The translations under genes were made by a program, and so were the position numbers. Below are positions 11,957-28,398 of a stretch of DNA of 64,000 bases, in pieces. The notes under the pieces were generated by a model. It was not told where the DNA came from and searched no databases. It saw only the letters and a program-made list of their open reading frames with translations. This DNA is from Candidatus Vogelbacteria bacterium (GTDB taxonomy: Bacteria; Patescibacteriota; Minisyncoccia; Phycocordibacterales; XYD1-FULL-46-19), in assembly GCA_903878275.1 (NCBI GenBank), contig CAIRHC010000006.1, positions 15,633 to 79,632 of the forward strand, in the 5' to 3' direction. Position 1 is the stretch's first letter. Every line of letters starts with the position of its first letter.

Positions 11957-12027
11957 GGGCCTATAGTATAGCGGTAGAACGGTTCCATGGCATGGAACAG
12001 GTCGGGGTCCGACTCCCCGTAGGTCCA
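11957..12027 (+). tRNA. tRNA-Ala (anticodon GGC)
   Basis: Acceptor GGGCCTA/TAGGTCC with G3:U70. Anticodon stem GTTCC/GGAAC, loop ATGGCAT. T-arm CGGGG-TCCGACT-CCCCG (non-canonical T-loop). Discriminator A. 71 nt. Confidence 0.7.
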
Positions 12028-12131
12028 CAATAGCTCACTGGTACCCGCCCGAACGACTGATATCGTTCAGTCGGGCGGGGAGCGCTTCCATGGCATGGAA
12101 GAGGTAAGCGGTTCGATCCCGCTATGGTCCA
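12028..12131 (+). pseudogene. tRNA-Ala-like partial copy (D-arm interrupted by 36-nt hairpin + intact anticodon/T arms + acceptor 3' strand; no matching 5' acceptor strand)
   Basis: TAGCTCACTGGTA, then perfect hairpin CCCGCCCGA...TCGGGCGGG (12044-12079), then GAGCG, CTTCC-ATGGCAT-GGAAG, AGGTA, AGCGG-TTCGATC-CCGCT, ATGGTCC-A. It shares the 15-nt palindromic core TTCCATGGCATGGAA and the 3' GGTCCACAA with the upstream tRNA, with compensatory stem changes. Confidence 0.45.
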
Positions 12132-19511: not shown

Positions 19512-20774
19512 ATGCAACCGTCTCTTAGTGCTTTTCAAATTTTTAATCAAAACCTTGCTCAATTAGAGTGGCAATTATTTTATCTTTCGTGGTACTTGGT
19601 GTATATTGCACCATTCTTTTTAGGTTGGGGTTTGTGGAAGACTTATCTTCATCACATCAGACGTATCTATGTCAAAGGACAAAAGCGCATTTTATTAGAA
19701 ATAAAATTACCGAAAGAACTAAATAAATCACCGGCGGCAATGGAGTTGGTTACACCGGTTTTTTATCAGACTTATGTTGGAGAATTGATAGATCAGTGGG
19801 TAAAAGGAAATGTTCAAGGCTGGTTTTCCTTAGAGCTAGTTTCGAAGGGCGGGGAGATACATTTTTATTTTAATGTTCCAGAATTTTTTAAAGATCTGGT
19901 TGAAACACAAATTTATTCGCAATATCCAGAAGTTGAAGTTTACCAAGTTGAAGACTATGTCAAAGAAGTGACTTTTGGTACGCCTGGTACCGATTGGGAT
20001 ATTGCCGGTTGGGAATTTAAACTTGCTAAGGCTGATGCCTATCCCATTAAAACTTACTTCGAATATGGATTAGACAAAGATCCCAAAGAAGAATTCAAAA
20101 TTGACCCAATGACACCGATGATAGAGTTTCTTGGTTCTATCGGCGCAAATGAGCGTGTTTGGTTTCAAATAATGGTAATGGCGACAAGAGATCGTTTCCC
20201 TGTGCCGTTTAAATGGGATCAGCCTTCGACATGGACAAAGAAAAAAGATTGGAAAGATGACGTTAAAAAAGAAATAGAGAAAGTATTAAAGCGAGATAAA
20301 AAAGCCGATATGGCAGAAAGTTTTACAAAATTAATGCCCACAAGAACTGAAGCTGCTCTGGCTGAATCAATGGAAAGGTCTTTAGGTAAATTAGCTTTCG
20401 ATGTTGGAATTCGCGCTCTTTATTGTGCCAAAGGTGGAAAGGGAATTCGTCCGGCAGTTAAGGTCGGTGTTGGTAATAGTATTAAGCAATTTGGAGCTCC
20501 GGGAATGAACACTATCAAAACAGCGAGGGTGACAGGTTTTAATAATCCTTGGCAAGACTATAATAATATCAGAAAATTTCGTTTGCAAAAGAAGTTTTTT
20601 AAGTGGTACACTCTTCGTTCGTACTTTTACCCACCTGCCAGTCAACCGCCAATGATCTTAACCAGCGAAGAACTTGCCACCGTCTATCATTTTCCTGGTC
20701 AGGTTGCGACCACACCGTCTTTGGGTCGTATTCCATCCAAGCGTGGCGAACCACCAACAAATTTACCAATTTAA
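19512..20774 (+). CDS. hypothetical membrane-anchored protein
   Basis: N-terminal TM (YLSWYLVYIAPFFLGWGLW), then a 380-aa soluble region with no recognised domain. Confidence 0.45.
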   Translation: MQPSLSAFQIFNQNLAQLEWQLFYLSWYLVYIAPFFLGWGLWKTYLHHIRRIYVKGQKRILLEIKLPKELNKSPAAMELVTPVFYQTYVGELIDQWVKGNVQGWFSLELVSKGGEIHFYFNVPEFFKDLVETQIYSQYPEVEVYQVEDYVKEVTFGTPGTDWDIAGWEFKLAKADAYPIKTYFEYGLDKDPKEEFKIDPMTPMIEFLGSIGANERVWFQIMVMATRDRFPVPFKWDQPSTWTKKKDWKDDVKKEIEKVLKRDKKADMAESFTKLMPTRTEAALAESMERSLGKLAFDVGIRALYCAKGGKGIRPAVKVGVGNSIKQFGAPGMNTIKTARVTGFNNPWQDYNNIRKFRLQKKFFKWYTLRSYFYPPASQPPMILTSEELATVYHFPGQVATTPSLGRIPSKRGEPPTNLPI

Positions 20775-21836: not shown

Positions 21837-22955
21837 TTGTGTTATAACTGGTTAGTGAAAAAAGAAGCTAAAAAAGTTTTTGTCGGTATGTCGGGCGGGA
21901 TTGATTCTTCGGTATCGGCTTATTTACTTAAAAAAGCCGGCTATAATGTCACTGGCGTTTTTATCCGAGCATGGGAACCAGCCGGTTATCCGTGTTCTTG
22001 GCGAGCGGAAAGACGTGAGGCGATGCGAGTGGCAAGCTTCTTAGATATTCCGCTTTTGACAATTGATTTATCGCGCGAGTACAAAGGGCGCGTGGTGGAT
22101 TATTTACTCGCCGAATACAAAGCGGGTAAGACGCCGAACCCGGATGTGATGTGCAATAAAATGATTAAATTCGGAGTGTTTTTTGATTGGGCAATAAATA
22201 ATGGCGCGGATTTTGTCGCGACCGGTCATTATGCGCAAATCTACCAACTACAACCTACAACCTACCAACTTTTGGTTAGTAAGGACAAGGAAAAAGATCA
22301 AACCTATTTTTTGTGGGCAATTGAAAAAAATAAATTATCAAAAATTATATTTCCCGTCGGCAATTTACTAAAAAGTGAAGTACGAAAAATTGCCGAAAAA
22401 GCTGGTTTGCCAAATGCCACCAAGAAAGATAGTCAGGGTTTGTGTTTTGTCGGTCAATTTGATTTTAAAGAATTCTTAGTTAAAGAAATTGGTGAGAAAC
22501 CCGGCAATGTTTTAAATGAAAACGGCGAAATAATCGGTGAGCACCAAGGCGCCTATCTTTTTACGAATGGTGAGCGCCACGGTTTTACTACTTTTCATAA
22601 ACATCCAGACGAAAAACCATATTATGTTGTATCAAAAGACCTAGCCAAAAATACGATTACTGTCTCGCAAAACCAATATCAAGGGGAGTCCTTGATGCAG
22701 ATAGTAAAATTAGAAAAAGTAAATTGGCTTGTTGAAATTTCAGAGGTGAGTCCTCTAGGGCAAGTGAGGTCTCTCCTCGGAAATTTATTGTCGGCTCGTG
22801 TCCGTTATCGCCAAACGCTGCAAACTTGCCATATCAAAGAAGTTAATCGTCAATCGTTAATTGTTGTCTTTGATAAACCGCAAACCATTGCCTCTGGTCA
22901 ATCCTTGGTACTTTACGACAAGGAGATTTGTCTTGGTGGCGGAGTTATTGTCTAA
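21837..22955 (+). CDS. mnmA: tRNA-specific 2-thiouridylase MnmA
   Basis: PP-loop VFVGMSGGIDSSVSAYLL; catalytic Cys region ...GLCFVGQ.... Confidence 0.85.
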   Translation: MCYNWLVKKEAKKVFVGMSGGIDSSVSAYLLKKAGYNVTGVFIRAWEPAGYPCSWRAERREAMRVASFLDIPLLTIDLSREYKGRVVDYLLAEYKAGKTPNPDVMCNKMIKFGVFFDWAINNGADFVATGHYAQIYQLQPTTYQLLVSKDKEKDQTYFLWAIEKNKLSKIIFPVGNLLKSEVRKIAEKAGLPNATKKDSQGLCFVGQFDFKEFLVKEIGEKPGNVLNENGEIIGEHQGAYLFTNGERHGFTTFHKHPDEKPYYVVSKDLAKNTITVSQNQYQGESLMQIVKLEKVNWLVEISEVSPLGQVRSLLGNLLSARVRYRQTLQTCHIKEVNRQSLIVVFDKPQTIASGQSLVLYDKEICLGGGVIV

Positions 22956-23004
22956 AAGCCCCAATAAGGGGTTTTTCTGGCAAAAATATTACAAACGAAG
23001 GCAC

Positions 23005-23033
23005 TTGACAAATAACTAAATTAGGTCTATAAT
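23005..23033 (+). promoter_or_regulatory. consensus sigma70 promoter (TTGACA-17nt-TATAAT)
   Basis: TTGACA at 23005-23010, 17-nt spacer, TATAAT at 23028-23033. Predicted TSS about 23040. Confidence 0.55.
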
Positions 23034-23040
23034 ATCACCA

Positions 23041-23202
23041 GAAGCTATTTGAAAGAAAAGGTCTGTGTCCTTCTCTGGTTGAGACTGCCCCGGCAAAGAC
23101 GAGGGGATTACGCTTACCAATTCGCTGTGAATTGGAAGCAAAAAACAATTTGCCCACGGGCACGGCTAGGGCTAGTCGTAACTCTACGGAAGGAGAAAAG
23201 CC
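23041..23202 (+). promoter_or_regulatory. GC-rich structured 5' leader (candidate cis-regulatory RNA / riboswitch-like)
   Basis: About 160 nt between the promoter and the ATG. Several perfect hairpins: CCAATTC-GCTGT-GAATTGG, TGCCC-ACG-GGGCA, CCCC...GGGG. Strong SD GGAAGGAG at its 3' end. Confidence 0.3.
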
Positions 23203-23775
23203 ATGAAGACAAATACTGCGAAGCTGTTGCACCAAACCGATTTAGAGTATGGACTTCCAGTCGGGGTCGAAGACCCTATTTCGCCAAGCGTAAATCGGGC
23301 TGAAGCTCTTAAAAAAGGCTTCCGGTTTGTCATCGGGAACGATTGCGGACCGAGCATTGGCATTCGCGAAAACGGAGCTCTCGTTCACACGAGCTGCGGC
23401 TCGTACAGGGAAGAGGATGGTCTCGAGTTTTTGCGGGCAAAAGCCCAGCAAATTGTCGAAGAATTTGGTCCCGGTGCCGTGAAGTGCCGAGGAACAAGAA
23501 TACCATCCGCTTCGTGCCCGATTTGGCAGCCCGCCATCTTGGAGTGGCAACCTCGCTACGAGACCAGTTTCTGTCGGAGCTTGGTCTCTCCAGAAACACC
23601 ACTTGGTGGTGGGGATACCCCCACGGGTTGGTACGAGGTCATCGAAATGGAGTTCTCCTCTCTAGAAGAAATGGCAAAAGCCGTTTCGAGTTGGGGAAGC
23701 GACTCCGAAGCCACAACGCCCGAAACTCTGAAGATTGCAGAGCTCCAAGTCGCGAAAGCTTACGCTTATCGCTAA
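23203..23775 (+). CDS. hypothetical Cys-containing 190-aa protein encoded in GC-rich island
   Basis: Strong SD with 7-nt spacing to the ATG. The stop lies 8 nt before the terminator stem. Sampled lines are about 55-58% GC, so all six frames are open here. No family recognised. Confidence 0.5.
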   Translation: MKTNTAKLLHQTDLEYGLPVGVEDPISPSVNRAEALKKGFRFVIGNDCGPSIGIRENGALVHTSCGSYREEDGLEFLRAKAQQIVEEFGPGAVKCRGTRIPSASCPIWQPAILEWQPRYETSFCRSLVSPETPLGGGDTPTGWYEVIEMEFSSLEEMAKAVSSWGSDSEATTPETLKIAELQVAKAYAYR

Positions 23776-23783
23776 CACTTGCA

Positions 23784-23830
23784 CCCGCCCGCAACGGAAA
23801 ACCGTTGGAGGGCGGTTTTCTTTTTTTATT
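23784..23830 (+). terminator. intrinsic terminator
   Basis: CCCGCCCGCAACGG-aaaa-CCGTTGGAGGGCGG followed by TTTTCTTTTTTTATTTTT. Confidence 0.75.
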
Positions 23831-23865
23831 TTTATTTTTCAATCTTTTTTGCTAGACTATTATCA

Positions 23866-25737
23866 ATGACTTCCGAAGAAATTCGTCAGAAATTTTTAAA
23901 ATTTTTCGAAAAGTGGGGACACAAAATTGTGCCTTCGGCTTCGCTCGTGCCCAGTGAATATGGTGACGAGGGCACGCTTTTTACGACCGCTGGGATGCAA
24001 CCGATAATCCCGTATCTTTTAGGTAAAGTCCATCCTGATGGTACCAGAATTGCGGATATCCAAAAATGTGTCCGGACTGGTGATATTGATGATGTCGGTG
24101 ACAATCGTCACAATACTTTTTTTGAGATGCTGGGAAATTGGAGCCTTGGTGATTATTTTAAGACCGAATCAATTCCTTGGAGCTTTGAATTTTTAACCAA
24201 CAAAGATTATGGTCTCGGTCTTGATCCTGCGCGATTTTATGTCACTACTTTTGCCGGCACTTCGGAAATTCCACGCGATAATGAATCCGTAAAAATTTGG
24301 CAAGAGGTTTTTACAAAACACGGTATTAAAGCCGACGTCGCCAGTACAAATGAAATGATTTTAGATAATATCCGAATTATTCCGCTTGGCGCTGATGATA
24401 ACTTTTGGATTGCCGGCAATACTGGTCCATGCGGAGGCGACACAGAAATTTTTTACGATGTCCGTCCCAACGAAAATAAATTGGAAGGAAAATTTAGCGA
24501 TCTAGTTGATTCTGGACGCATTATTGAAGTTTGGAATAATGTTTTTATGGAATTCAATAAAACACCAGACGGAAAATATGAACCACTAGCGAAGAAAAAT
24601 GTTGATACGGGTATGGGTCTGGAGCGAACTACTGCCGTCGTAAACGGCAAAGATCATATCTTTGAAACCGATCTTTTCCTCCCGATTATCACTAAAATCA
24701 AAGACCTAGCTTCAAATAGTAATGGAAAAGCCGAACGAATTATCGCCGATCATCTTCGTACTGCCGTTTTTATGATTGCCGATGGTGTCGCTCCAGCCAA
24801 TACCGATCGCGGTTATATTTTGCGTCGCATTATTCGCCGGATGACCAGATATAGTGACCAAATCGGCTTGCCCAATGAAGCCAGTAAAATTATCGCGGAA
24901 ATAATTATCGATAAATACAAAGCACACTATCCAAATCTGGAAACAGAAAAAGTGAAGATTTTTGACGAATTAAAAAAAGAGGAAGATCGTTTTCGGAAAA
25001 CTCTGGCAAACGGGGTCAAAGTTTTAGACAAACAATTATCCGGCAAATTCAATACCGCTATCGATGCCACCGAAAATCTGATCAGCCCCGTTTTGACTGG
25101 TGATTTCTTTTTTAATCTTTACCAATCATATGGTTTTCCTCTGGAACTGGCGCTCGAAGAAATTAAAAATCGCGGACAAAAATTATTTAAAGAGACCGAA
25201 ACAAAACTGAAAGATGAATTTTCTGATTTAATTTCCAAGCATCAAGAAACTTCGCGGGCTGGCGCCGAACAAAAATTTAAAGGCGGTCTGGCGGGAACCG
25301 GCGAAATAGAAACTAAATATCACACCGCGACGCATTTGCTTTTGGCTTCACTCCGGCAAGTTTTGGGTGCTGATATTGTCCAAAAAGGTAGCAACATCAC
25401 CGCCGAACGTTTACGTTTTGATTTTAATTGGTCGGACAAACTTACCGACGAGCAGATCAAAAAAGTTGAAGATTTGGTCAATGAAAAAATTCAGGAAAAA
25501 ATCCCCGTCGAAATGCTCGAGCTTCCAAAAAACGAAGCTCTAAAAATCGTCACAACTTTATCTTTCGATCTATCCAAATATGGTGATATGGTAAAAGTCT
25601 ACAAAATCGGCGGGTTCAGCACTGAATTTTGTGGCGGTCCTCACGTGAAAAATACCGAAGAACTTGGTCATTTCAAAATCGCCAAAGAAGAAGCCTCTTC
25701 GGCTGGAGTGAGAAGGATTAAAGCAGTTTTAGAATAA
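23866..25737 (+). CDS. alaS: alanyl-tRNA synthetase, short form (catalytic + tRNA-recognition + editing domains; no C-Ala/DHHA1 domain)
   Basis: FTTAGMQP, ...GDYFK class-II AlaRS N-terminus; editing-domain HxxxH/CGGPH (FCGGPHV). ATG 23866 preferred over the listed TTG 23779, which would run through the terminator. Confidence 0.9.
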   Translation: MTSEEIRQKFLKFFEKWGHKIVPSASLVPSEYGDEGTLFTTAGMQPIIPYLLGKVHPDGTRIADIQKCVRTGDIDDVGDNRHNTFFEMLGNWSLGDYFKTESIPWSFEFLTNKDYGLGLDPARFYVTTFAGTSEIPRDNESVKIWQEVFTKHGIKADVASTNEMILDNIRIIPLGADDNFWIAGNTGPCGGDTEIFYDVRPNENKLEGKFSDLVDSGRIIEVWNNVFMEFNKTPDGKYEPLAKKNVDTGMGLERTTAVVNGKDHIFETDLFLPIITKIKDLASNSNGKAERIIADHLRTAVFMIADGVAPANTDRGYILRRIIRRMTRYSDQIGLPNEASKIIAEIIIDKYKAHYPNLETEKVKIFDELKKEEDRFRKTLANGVKVLDKQLSGKFNTAIDATENLISPVLTGDFFFNLYQSYGFPLELALEEIKNRGQKLFKETETKLKDEFSDLISKHQETSRAGAEQKFKGGLAGTGEIETKYHTATHLLLASLRQVLGADIVQKGSNITAERLRFDFNWSDKLTDEQIKKVEDLVNEKIQEKIPVEMLELPKNEALKIVTTLSFDLSKYGDMVKVYKIGGFSTEFCGGPHVKNTEELGHFKIAKEEASSAGVRRIKAVLE

Positions 25738-27147: not shown

Positions 27148-28398
27148 ATGTTTTTTACCTCGTCTAAAGAAAAAGAGAAGGAGATTGTTGGCATTATTGA
27201 TATTGGTAGTTCGCAAATTAGCGGAACGATTTTTGAATTGTCCGATAAAACTGAAATTTCTCCGTCAAAAACAGTCCCGCCCGTTGAAGACAAGCCGATC
27301 GCCGATCGTTTGCTTTTTTCTTGTGACGAAAAAATTACTTTTTCGGAAACGCCAGATGCTAGCCGTTTTCTAAGTGCGATCAGCGAGGCTTTAAAAAAAG
27401 TAATGGTTGGTCTTAAAGCTGGCCCGAAAATTCCAACCAGATTTTTTGTCTTTTTGTCTTCACCGTTTTTTGTCTCTCAAGCCAGAGTAATAAATTATGA
27501 AGGCGCGAAGCCATTTTTGGTCAACGACATTTTAATTGAAAATTTAATCAAAACTGAAACCGATAAATTTTTAGCGACCGCTCATCAAATTTTTCCAGTC
27601 AGTGTTGGCGATAGTCACGAGATAATTGAAAACAAAATCTTGCGAGTCAAATTGAACGGCTACGAAATCAAAGAACCAATCGGCAAGACCGCGCAAAGCT
27701 TGAGCCTAAGTCAATTCATCAGTGTCGGTCCAAAAGAATTGTTGAATAAGCTGGAGCTTCTGATTCATAGCGAAAAAGCTGATGCCAAAATAAGTTTCCA
27801 TACTTTTTCTTTGACGGCGTACCAGACTTTCACTCGGCTCATTGATAAAAAATATCGTAATTTTGTACTGATTGATACCGGCGGCGAAATCACTGATCTT
27901 CTAGTGGTTGCCGACGGACTTTTGGTGGAGCATCTATCTTTTCCGAAAGGTAAAAACTATTTAATCCGCAAACTAGCTAAAAAAATGGGGACAGTTTTTG
28001 CCGAAGCCTCATCATCGCTGGAAATTTATCAAAGCGGACAGGCGAGTATCGTGCTGAAAAATCGGCTAGAATCAGCTTTGGTGGAAATCAAAAAAGACTG
28101 GCTCGGATCTTTCAAAGAAGCGCTGGCAAAAGTGACCGAAACTGTTTTTTTACCAGAAAACTTTTTTATTCTTGGCGACGACAAGTCCGATGAAATTTTT
28201 GTTGATTTTATTGAGAAAGAAAGTATGATCGAACTTTCACTAAGTCAAAATAATTTCGATGTCATATTTGTGGATAATTCGATTCTTTCTGGAAACTCTA
28301 TAGCCAAACAACGCCTACCAAACAACCTTTTTCTATTTGTAGAATCTTATTATTGTGATAAAATATATTCTAAGACAGCGTCACTCTATTTTTTGTAA
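27148..28398 (+). CDS. actin-like ATPase of the PilM/FtsA family (probable type IV pilus assembly PilM)
   Basis: N-terminal IVGIIDIGSSQISGTIFEL and FVLIDTGGEITDLLVVADG resemble the PilM/FtsA phosphate-1 and phosphate-2 motifs. Confidence 0.5.
   Translation: MFFTSSKEKEKEIVGIIDIGSSQISGTIFELSDKTEISPSKTVPPVEDKPIADRLLFSCDEKITFSETPDASRFLSAISEALKKVMVGLKAGPKIPTRFFVFLSSPFFVSQARVINYEGAKPFLVNDILIENLIKTETDKFLATAHQIFPVSVGDSHEIIENKILRVKLNGYEIKEPIGKTAQSLSLSQFISVGPKELLNKLELLIHSEKADAKISFHTFSLTAYQTFTRLIDKKYRNFVLIDTGGEITDLLVVADGLLVEHLSFPKGKNYLIRKLAKKMGTVFAEASSSLEIYQSGQASIVLKNRLESALVEIKKDWLGSFKEALAKVTETVFLPENFFILGDDKSDEIFVDFIEKESMIELSLSQNNFDVIFVDNSILSGNSIAKQRLPNNLFLFVESYYCDKIYSKTASLYFL

What the first reader, a model, noticed from the sequence alone, without database searches (positions are those of the whole stretch)
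23005..23830. GC-rich 0.8-kb island: consensus sigma70 promoter, 160-nt structured leader, 190-aa Cys-containing ORF and strong terminator between mnmA and alaS
Sampled lines here are about 55-58% GC against roughly 30-45% in flanking genes, so ORFs are open on both strands. The transcription unit is unusually well defined: a perfect TTGACA-17-TATAAT promoter, a leader full of perfect hairpins, a strong SD (GGAAGGAG), and a stop 8 nt before a GC-clamped terminator. The protein has no recognisable family. Two readings are possible: a horizontally acquired small gene under a riboswitch-like leader, or a large structured ncRNA in which the ORF is coincidental. The leader holds two ACGR-GGG-like elements (GACGAGGGGA, ACGGAAGGAGA) that loosely recall guanidine-type riboswitch loops, but this is unverified.
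Basis: partly seen in the sequence, partly recalled or inferred. Interest (0 to 1): 0.65.

Follow-up and report, generated by a model that had tools for sequence, protein, structure and literature searches.

The report
Orphan gene island with hyper-structured mRNA
A 0.9-kb GC-rich insert between two housekeeping genes of a Paceibacterota (CPR) bacterium is a self-contained, foreign protein-coding gene of a very rare, unnamed family. It is not a non-coding RNA or a recognisable riboswitch, but its mRNA is predicted to fold far more tightly than any other gene nearby.

Summary
There is a perfect TTGACA-17-TATAAT promoter (23005-23033), a 163-nt leader, SD GGAAGGAG, a 190-codon ORF (23203-23775) and a two-tier terminator (23785-23815 plus U-run). 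GC is 50-55% against 39.6% for the window.

The ORF is a real gene. It has remote protein homologues in unrelated contigs: P0002 (231 aa) and a 102-aa family in L094/L097/L106. They share P-[LF]-G-G-G-D-x-x-T-G-W-Y-x-V, and more than half of the conserved codons differ at synonymous third positions.

Relatives keep mltG-mnmA-alaS adjacent, with a gap of about 115 nt, so the cassette is an insertion.

No Pfam, NCBIfam, PHROG, PADLOC, PDB or Rfam assignment exists. The guanidine-riboswitch idea fails (14 bits against a gathering score of 63; only the SD region matches). Even so, the SD is predicted to be sequestered by an anti-SD (UCCUUCU, 23068-23074).

One result is unexplained. The coding region is 37 kcal/mol more stable than synonymous recodings (z about -6). 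The other 40 genes average about -0.4, and the next most extreme is -3.3.

Function is unknown. This is an ordinary orphan island with one genuinely odd RNA property.

The parts
22958..22976 (+). Terminator-like hairpin of mnmA (GCCCC-AATAA-GGGG + TTTTT). It marks the left edge of the inserted segment.
   Evidence: Read directly from the sequence. mnmA stops at 22955.
23005..23033 (+). Sigma-70-type promoter, TTGACA-17-TATAAT (12/12). The TSS is inferred at about 23040.
   Evidence: It is the only match allowing up to 1 mismatch in the 64-kb window. Promoter function is inferred.
23040..23202 (+). 163-nt 5' leader. The closed domain 23060-23202 contains the hairpin 23112-23139.
   Evidence: Fold. 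Fold z is -2.4. No Rfam family matches.
23068..23074 (+). Anti-SD element UCCUUCU, predicted to pair with the SD.
   Evidence: Pair probabilities are 0.93-1.0 for 23068-23074 with 23188-23194. This is a prediction only.
23188..23195 (+). Shine-Dalgarno GGAAGGAG, 7 nt upstream of the ATG.
23203..23775 (+). Protein-coding gene of 190 aa (20.8 kDa, pI 5.0), member of a rare unnamed family. The N-part (residues 1-93) is shared only with P0002. The C-terminal domain (about residues 94-190) also occurs as a stand-alone 102-aa protein.
   Evidence: Homologues. Frame-specific tblastx. Codon comparison. Protein properties.
23596..23649 (+). Codons for the family signature T-P-L-G-G-G-D-T-P-T-G-W-Y-E-V-I-E-M (residues 132-149).
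   Evidence: Codon alignment of five loci.
23363..23756 (+). Predicted closed, multi-branched RNA domain inside the CDS. It is closed by UUCGCGA/UCGCGAA (23363-69/23750-56) and GGAGCUCU/AGAGCUCC (23374-81/23739-46).
   Evidence: Helix probabilities are 0.90-0.99. Excess stability is shown. There is no comparative support.
23785..23830 (+). Intrinsic terminator: outer stem CCGCCC/GGGCGG, inner stem CAACGG/CCGUUG, loop AAAA, then a U-run.
   Evidence: helix probability 0.99.

Best explanation
The island is a horizontally acquired, self-contained expression cassette: its own consensus promoter, a long leader, a strong SD, a 190-codon gene and its own terminator. It was inserted into the conserved mltG-mnmA-alaS cluster of a Paceibacterota (CPR) bacterium.

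The gene encodes a small acidic cytoplasmic protein of a very rare, uncharacterised family. The family is defined by a C-terminal domain of about 95 aa carrying P-[LF]-G-G-G-D-x-x-T-G-W-Y-x-V.

Shown here:
- It is a coding gene.
- It is an insertion with foreign base composition.
- It has no known family.
- The mRNA is predicted to be much more structured than its composition, codon usage and protein sequence require.

Inferred:
- Transcription is strong and constitutive. Translation is throttled or regulated, because the leader's anti-SD (23068-23074) pairs with the SD.
- The dense structure of the coding region most likely serves mRNA stability or expression control. It probably is not a separate ncRNA function.
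- The protein's biochemical role is unknown. My best guess is an accessory protein carried by mobile elements. The stand-alone version of the domain sits in a run of small same-strand orphan genes in a high-GC contig.
For: Coding status:
- phmmer against 1.84 billion cluster representatives finds P0002 at E = 7e-4 (32% identity over 104 aa).
- A DNA-pattern scan finds a 102-aa family, 46% identical over 50 aa. The identities extend beyond the pattern used for the scan.
- The best tblastx hit is in the ORF frame.
- In the motif block, 6-8 of the 10-14 amino-acid-identical codons differ, and only at third positions.
- dN/dS is 0.33-0.53 within the 102-aa family.
- A chance ORF of at least 190 codons has P = 0.008, and G is enriched at codon position 1 (p = 0.035).

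Insertion:
- In the closest relative, L002, mnmA ends at 7083 and alaS starts at about 7198. Many other Patescibacteria also have alaS within about 30-150 nt of mnmA.
- None of the 80 relative loci contains island-like DNA.
- GC3 is 0.54 against 0.25-0.37 in neighbouring genes.
- The same left junction occurs in three other assemblies.

RNA structure:
- Dinucleotide-shuffle z is -6.2 for the CDS.
- Synonymous-codon shuffle z is -6.0.
- In a separate run over 41 window genes it scored -5.7, the extreme outlier. The mean was -0.5 and the SD 1.3 with ORF190 included, and the next lowest was -3.3.
- SD pairing probability is about 1.0.
Against: - Only three independent lineages of the family exist in the searched collections, and all similarities are remote. 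Coding status rests on a block of about 50-100 aa.
- AlphaFold models are poor (pLDDT 43-48), so the fold is unknown.
- No target-site duplication, terminal inverted repeats or integrase mark the insertion.
- The right-hand junction (the alaS side) is covered only by the window's own assembly. Three short contigs all stop inside the terminator.
- All RNA structure is thermodynamic prediction from a single sequence, with no covariation available.
- Excess structure is weaker in the homologues: P0002 CDS z = -2.9 and the 102-aa gene z = -4.2, while their neighbours reach -2.7. It may therefore not be a family trait.
Confidence: 0.75

Rival explanations
1. Dual-function RNA. The transcript encodes the protein, and its well-defined fold also has a function of its own. 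Candidates are the 390-nt closed domain 23363-23756 and the leader domain. That function could be a scaffold or decoy, a processing substrate, or a relic of a structured replicon.
For: - z is about -6 under three shuffle schemes, including ones that preserve the protein.
- Helices are highly probable (0.9-1.0), including long-range ones.
- The plus strand is about 23 kcal/mol more stable than the minus strand.
- The 102-aa homologue's gene (z = -4.2) and the 396-nt leader of P0002 (z = -7.2) are also unusually structured.
Against: - There is no Rfam family and no nucleotide-level homologue, so there is no covariation.
- The motif-region hairpin GUGGGG/CCCCAC is not conserved in the homologues.
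- The two long-range helices arise from repeated 6-bp palindromes (GAGCTC, TCGCGA), which can occur by chance.
- The P0002 CDS is only mildly structured.
Confidence: 0.15
2. Riboswitch- or ligand-controlled gene. The 163-nt leader is an aptamer, possibly guanidine-type, that opens or closes the anti-SD:SD helix.
For: - The closed leader domain has the SD sequestered.
- The top, very weak Rfam hit in the leader is Guanidine-I. ACGGAAGGAGAAAAGCC matches the consensus ACGGagGGAuAAAAGCC.
Against: - The hit scores 14.3 bits against a gathering score of 63, with E = 1.8 even when only 186 nt are searched.
- 38 of the 40 nt of the P1a/P1b/P2 region are missing, and the P3 stem is not formed.
- The matching bases are simply the SD and its A-rich spacer.
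- Leader z is only -2.4.
- No mini-ykkC or guanidine-III hit appears even at E<=10.
- The product is not a transporter or carboxylase, the gene types typical of guanidine regulons (my own knowledge).
- The homologue's leader is unrelated.
Confidence: 0.07
3. Large structured non-coding RNA in which the ORF is coincidental.
For: - It is a GC-rich island in an AT-rich genome.
- z is -6.9 for the whole transcript.
- ORFs are open in several frames.
- The protein is an orphan in 5.8 billion clusters.
Against: - Protein-level homologues exist, with near-saturated synonymous divergence in the conserved codons.
- The similarity is frame-specific.
- A strong SD sits at correct spacing.
- There is no Rfam hit.
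Confidence: 0.03

Closest known systems
Horizontally acquired orphan (ORFan) gene islands in bacterial genomes
   Same: Atypical base composition, insertion into a conserved gene neighbourhood, own promoter and terminator, and no detectable family.
   Different: - No mobility genes, tRNA attachment site or repeats flank it.
- The island is GC-rich in an AT-rich host.
- The mRNA is an extreme outlier for predicted secondary structure.
Translational-control leaders that sequester the SD (RNA thermometers, translational riboswitches, protein-bound leaders)
   Same: A pyrimidine anti-SD (UCCUUCU) upstream pairs with the SD and closes a leader domain of about 140 nt. The AUG itself is left unpaired.
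   Different: - The helix is a perfect 7-bp pairing, stronger than typical thermometers (my own knowledge).
- It matches no conserved aptamer family.
- No homologous leaders exist with which to test covariation.
Guanidine-I (ykkC) riboswitch, RF00442
   Same: A 17-nt stretch, ACGGAAGGAGAAAAGCC, resembles the conserved P3-proximal consensus.
   Different: - It lacks the P1a/P1b/P2 stack and the P3 stem.
- It scores 14.3 bits against 63.
- The similarity coincides with the ribosome-binding site.
WCX domain (PF25583) of WYL-type regulators (PafBC, DriD)
   Same: Residues 139-177 give a sub-threshold Pfam match (E = 0.013). PafBC and DriD chains appear among the insignificant Foldseek hits.
   Different: - The match is below Pfam's cut-off (16.2 against 23.9 bits).
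- The other three family members give no match.
- There is no WYL or HTH domain.
- The structural model is too poor to compare.
Obelisk RNA elements (Oblin-1)
   Same: A unit of about 1 kb with an ORF of about 200 aa embedded in highly structured RNA.
   Different: - It is DNA-encoded in a chromosome, with a promoter and a terminator.
- The fold is branched, not rod-like.
- The protein lacks Oblin-1's GYxDxG domain-A and its all-helical globule (10.1101/2024.01.20.576352).

Membership tests
Guanidine-I riboswitch (RF00442) | Covariance-model score at or above the gathering threshold (63 bits). | tested here: not met
   14.3 bits, with E = 1.8 in a 186-nt search. The hit is absent at E<=1 in a 3-kb search.
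Guanidine-I riboswitch (RF00442) | P1-P1a-P1b-P2 coaxial stack plus a P3 hairpin carrying the conserved binding-site nucleotides. | tested here: not met
   Only 2 nt stand in place of the 40-nt internal region. The P3 pairs are flagged as non-canonical.
Guanidine-II (mini-ykkC) / Guanidine-III | Two hairpins with ACGR tetraloops (II), or the ykkC-III pseudoknot, detectable by the Rfam models. | tested here: not met
   Neither family is listed even at E<=10 in the leader. GCCCACGGGC folds as a 3-4-bp stem with a CACG loop, not an ACGR loop (read from the sequence).
Any curated structured RNA family (Rfam 15; my expectation is that this includes GOLLD, ROOL, OLE, raiA, RNase P, tmRNA and 6S) | A significant covariance-model match. 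| tested here: not met
   No match at E<=1 in 22000-25000. Only noise (E>1.5) appears in 23030-23840.
WCX domain (PF25583) | A Pfam score at or above the gathering threshold, seen consistently in family members. | tested here: not met
   16.2 bits against 23.9. Only 1 of the 4 family members matches.
Obelisk / Oblin-1 | Oblin-1 domain-A (GYxDxG, basic-rich), a rod-like circular RNA, and no DNA copy. | tested here: not met
   No GYxDxG is present. The protein is acidic (pI 5.0). The element is chromosomal DNA in four assemblies. The median base-pair span is 27 nt and the fold is branched. Criteria are taken from 10.1101/2024.01.20.576352.
New 'PLGGGD-x2-TGWY' protein family (defined here) | The motif P-[LF]-G-G-G-D-x-x-T-G-W-Y-x-V inside a C-terminal domain of about 95 aa, with alignable flanks. 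| tested here: met
   Window ORF, P0002 and the L094/L097/L106 proteins.
Known anti-phage defence proteins (PADLOC) / phage protein families (PHROGs) | A profile-HMM match. | tested here: not met
   No hit at E<=10 in PADLOC. No meaningful PHROG hit.
RecA N-terminal polymerisation helix (mimic idea) | Significant similarity to the RecA N-terminal helix, residues 1-30. | tested here: not met
   Per-domain i-Evalues are 260-1000 in 3cmu. hhalign probability is 1.9%.
Mobile element (IS, transposon or integrative element) | Terminal inverted repeats or target-site duplication, and a transposase or integrase. | tested here: not met
   There are no flanking repeats, and the only gene in the insert is the 190-aa ORF.

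The most novel reading that the evidence does not exclude
The cassette is a true dual-function gene. It was acquired horizontally by a CPR bacterium, and its mRNA has been selected at synonymous sites to fold into a defined large RNA architecture: a 390-nt closed domain plus an SD-sequestering leader. That architecture has a role of its own, such as a scaffold or decoy, extreme RNase resistance, or descent from a structured replicon. Meanwhile the gene encodes the founding member of a previously unseen protein family (PLGGGD-x2-TGWY).
Probability: 0.12. Interest if true: 0.65.

Novelty: new member of a known kind. Interest (0 to 1): 0.35.

Why it matters
- It settles the coding-versus-ncRNA question for this island. 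GC-rich, hyper-structured islands in AT-rich genomes are usually taken as ncRNA candidates, and this one is a protein gene. It is therefore a useful cautionary case for ncRNA screens.
- It defines a tiny new protein family: three lineages in more than 15 billion predicted proteins plus JGI contigs.
- It flags a rare case where synonymous sites appear to be arranged for RNA structure (z about -6). If confirmed experimentally, this would be a clean natural model for how mRNA structure tunes stability or translation in CPR bacteria, whose RNA biology is almost unexplored.
- Otherwise it is one more orphan gene of unknown function.

Tried and rejected
- **Rfam:** searched at gathering and permissive thresholds over the window, the island, the leader and the homologue loci. 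Only noise came back.
- **Guanidine riboswitch:** rejected.
- **Profile libraries:** Pfam, NCBIfam, PHROGs and PADLOC gave only a sub-threshold WCX hit for one member.
- **PDB profile search:** the RecA and interferon hits are artefacts of repeated chains. The RecA N-terminal mimic idea was rejected by hhalign.
- **Homologue searches:**
  - Word-indexed search of 5.8 billion clusters with the ORF, with P0002 and with their profile found only themselves.
  - The peptide-pattern scan of JGI metagenomes found nothing, and viral contigs gave nothing.
  - Phage and plasmid tblastn found nothing. The one exception was an insignificant hit to a hypothetical protein of T4-like (Straboviridae) phages: E = 0.8, hhalign probability 4%.
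- **Island DNA against 80 mnmA-containing relatives:** no homologue.
- **Obelisk/Oblin-1 analogy:** rejected.
- **Transposon-like ends:** none.
- **Paralogues in the window:** none.
- **Sample metadata in the literature:** nothing found.
- **Other contigs carrying the island:** identical in sequence apart from one nonsynonymous SNP, so they give no comparative information.

Full report
**1. What is in the sequence.**

- The promoter TTGACA-17-TATAAT lies at 23005-23033. It is the only 12/12 match in the region, and the only match allowing up to 1 mismatch in the 64-kb window. One such match is not statistically rare, since 45 of 100 shuffles gave at least 1.
- From an inferred start near 23040, a 163-nt leader runs to the ATG at 23203. 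The SD GGAAGGAG (23188-23195) sits 7 nt upstream of it.
- The ORF is 190 codons and ends at 23775.
- Nine nucleotides later a two-tier hairpin begins: CCGCCC/GGGCGG around CAACGG/CCGUUG, 23785-23815. A U-run follows.
- GC is 0.50-0.55 in 200-nt windows. The 400-nt maximum of 0.555 is the highest in a window that averages 0.396.
- Long ORFs are open in another + frame (170 aa) and on the - strand (102 and 90 aa).
- The neighbours are MnmA and AlaRS, with MltG upstream, by NCBIfam equivalog models.
- The host is a Paceibacterota/Patescibacteria (CPR) bacterium, judged from the closest MnmA and AlaRS relatives.

**2. Coding or non-coding?**

As a protein the ORF is nearly an orphan.
- A word-indexed search of 5.8 billion clusters returned only a 99%-identical copy from the same locus.
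- Pfam gave only a sub-threshold WCX match (E = 0.013, 16.2 against 23.9 bits). NCBIfam, PHROGs and PADLOC gave nothing.

An exhaustive phmmer run against 1.84 billion cluster representatives found one remote relative.
- This is P0002, 231 aa, at E = 7e-4. It is 32% identical over 104 aa.
- The two share ...IV-x-x-FG-x-G-x-V... and E-T-P-[LF]-G-G-G-D-x-x-T-G-W-Y-x-V.

I then scanned JGI metagenome contigs with the degenerate DNA pattern for GGGDxxTGWY.
- Of the 38 hits, three contigs (L094, L097, L106) encode a 102-aa protein.
- Its similarity extends well beyond the pattern: APLGGGDPETGWYEVVTMEV against TPLGGGDTPTGWYEVIEMEF.
- It is 46% identical over 50 aa to the window protein, and 38% over 69 aa to P0002.

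Several tests point to protein-level conservation.
- Between the island and the P0002 locus, the best tblastx hit is in the ORF frame. Nucleotide similarity is negligible.
- In the 24-codon motif block, 6-8 of the 10-14 amino-acid-identical codons differ between lineages. All of those differences are at third positions, so the conservation is of the protein and not of the RNA.
- Within the 102-aa family, dN/dS is 0.33-0.53, on small counts.
- An ORF of at least 190 codons arises in only 0.8% of dinucleotide shuffles of the island. G is enriched at codon position 1 (p = 0.035).

I conclude the ORF is a real gene. The reading 'ncRNA with a coincidental ORF' is rejected.

**3. Origin.**
- In the closest relative (L002: MnmA 59% and AlaRS 67% identical), mltG, mnmA and alaS are contiguous, with a spacer of about 115 nt between mnmA and alaS.
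- Many other Patescibacteria also have alaS within about 30-150 nt of mnmA. In the window the spacer is 910 nt.
- None of the 80 mnmA loci contains island-like DNA.
- GC3 of the ORF is 0.54, against 0.25-0.37 in the neighbours.
- The cassette is therefore an insertion of foreign composition.
- It has no flanking direct or inverted repeats and no mobility gene, and no paralogue in the window.
- The same mnmA-side junction occurs in three other metagenome assemblies, identical apart from one nonsynonymous SNP. All three contigs stop inside the terminator hairpin, so the alaS-side junction is documented only by the window.

The homologue P0002 is arranged similarly.
- It is a stand-alone gene with GC about 0.49 in flanks of about 0.40.
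- It has its own terminator and a 396-nt upstream region, and it is divergent from dprA.

The 102-aa version lies in a run of small same-strand orphan genes in a high-GC contig. None of these has a Pfam or PHROG match. That context looks like a mobile element, but this is not shown.

**4. The leader.**
- No Rfam family matches at E<=1.
- When only the leader is searched at E<=10, the top hit is Guanidine-I at 14.3 bits (gathering score 63, E = 1.8).
- The alignment shows that only ACGGAAGGAGAAAAGCC, the SD and its spacer, resembles the consensus. The 40-nt P1a/P1b/P2 core is missing and P3 is not formed.
- No guanidine-II or guanidine-III hit appears.
- The leader's fold z is -2.4, which is within the range of ordinary genes.

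What the leader does show is a closed domain, 23060-23202.
- In it UCCUUCU (23068-23074) pairs with GGAAGGA (23188-23194) at probability 0.93-1.0. The AUG stays unpaired.
- This is a prediction from one sequence. It suggests translational throttling or control, but it does not identify a sensor.

**5. The unexpected part: the coding region is hyper-structured.**

| Measure | Result |
|---|---|
| Whole transcript, + strand | z = -6.9 |
| Whole transcript, - strand | z = -4.6 |
| CDS alone, dinucleotide shuffle, + strand | z = -6.2 |
| CDS alone, dinucleotide shuffle, - strand | z = -4.0 |
| 573-nt pieces of mnmA, alaS and mltG | z = +1.0 to -2.4 |
| CDS, synonymous codons permuted | native -231.6 against mean -194.3 kcal/mol, z = -6.0; none of 60 recodings came within 22 kcal/mol |
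| CDS, whole codons permuted | z = -6.8 |
| Same synonymous test on 41 genes of the window | ORF190 z = -5.7, the extreme outlier; mean -0.5, SD 1.3 (ORF190 included); next lowest -3.3 |

Permuting synonymous codons keeps both the protein and the codon usage fixed.

- The two halves of the CDS each score about -2.5. About 21 kcal/mol comes from pairing between the halves.
- The MFE has many helices at probability 0.9-1.0. Two long-range helices (23363-69/23750-56 and 23374-81/23739-46) close a 390-nt branched domain. Those two helices stem from duplicated 6-bp palindromes.
- The homologues are less extreme. The P0002 CDS scores -2.9, though its leader scores -7.2 and has three long near-perfect hairpins. 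The 102-aa gene scores -4.2, with neighbours between -0.4 and -2.7.
- The motif hairpin in the window is not conserved in the homologues.
- Excess structure is therefore clear for this gene, only suggestive for the family, and without comparative support.

I regard mRNA stability or expression control as the likeliest reason. A separate RNA function is an open minority possibility.

**6. The protein.**
- It is 20.8 kDa with pI 5.0. It is hydrophilic overall (GRAVY -0.34), and I see no signal peptide or membrane segment on reading the sequence.
- AlphaFold2 gives low-confidence alpha/beta models, with pLDDT 47.6 and 42.8. Foldseek against PDB gives nothing significant.
- The RecA N-terminal-helix look-alike (QIVEEFGPGAV) is not significant. 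Per-domain i-Evalues are at least 260 and hhalign probability is 1.9%.
- A hit to a hypothetical protein of T4-like (Straboviridae) phages is also noise.
- Oblin-1 of Obelisks is excluded on motif, charge, fold and DNA status.
- Function remains unknown. By context I guess it is an accessory protein that travels with mobile DNA.

**7. Verdict.**
It is a horizontally acquired small gene. It is not an ncRNA, and a riboswitch is not demonstrated.
- It is a new member of a familiar kind, the orphan gene island. Its one unusual and measurable property is extreme predicted mRNA structure at synonymous sites.
- Interest is moderate to low unless experiments show that the structure matters.

Noticed in passing
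window 2367-5573 (with tRNA-Ala at 7296-7372, - strand): ORF 2367-2891 carries Pol-beta thumb/palm fragments. Its GC is 0.48 and its synonymous-shuffle fold z is -3.3, the second lowest in the window. It is followed by a 762-aa Prim-Pol + PriCT-1 protein at 3285-5573. The region is locally GC-rich and lies near a tRNA-Ala(TGC), so it is probably an integrated mobile element.
   Followed up: partly
window 11957-12130: There are two tandem tRNA-Ala(GGC) calls, at 11957-12028 and 12055-12130. Rfam at gathering threshold reports only the first, and the second is seen only by ARAGORN.
   Followed up: no
L082 604-999: A 396-nt AT-rich region lies upstream of the homologue P0002 and is divergent from dprA. 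It holds three long, near-perfect hairpins (9 bp, 22 bp and 15+7 bp). Its fold z is -7.2, and no Rfam family matches.
   Followed up: partly
L001, L123, L124 (equivalent to window 23802-23812): Three independent short metagenome contigs that carry the island all terminate inside the island's terminator hairpin. The alaS-side junction is therefore supported only by the window's own assembly.
   Followed up: partly
window 23836-23868: alaS (ATG at 23866) has no recognisable SD. A -10-like TATTAT ends 3 nt before its start codon. This suggests a leaderless start or dependence on read-through from upstream.
   Followed up: no
L094 / L097 / L106 (JGI Ga0172362, Ga0172364): The high-GC contigs that carry the 102-aa stand-alone domain also hold small same-strand genes of 97, 150 and 169-206 aa. 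None of these has a Pfam or PHROG match. The exact proteins are absent from the 15-billion-protein collection.
   Followed up: partly
window 19512-20774 and 27148-28398: Two sizeable ORFs, of 420 aa and 416 aa, flank the conserved cluster and have no Pfam match.
   Followed up: no
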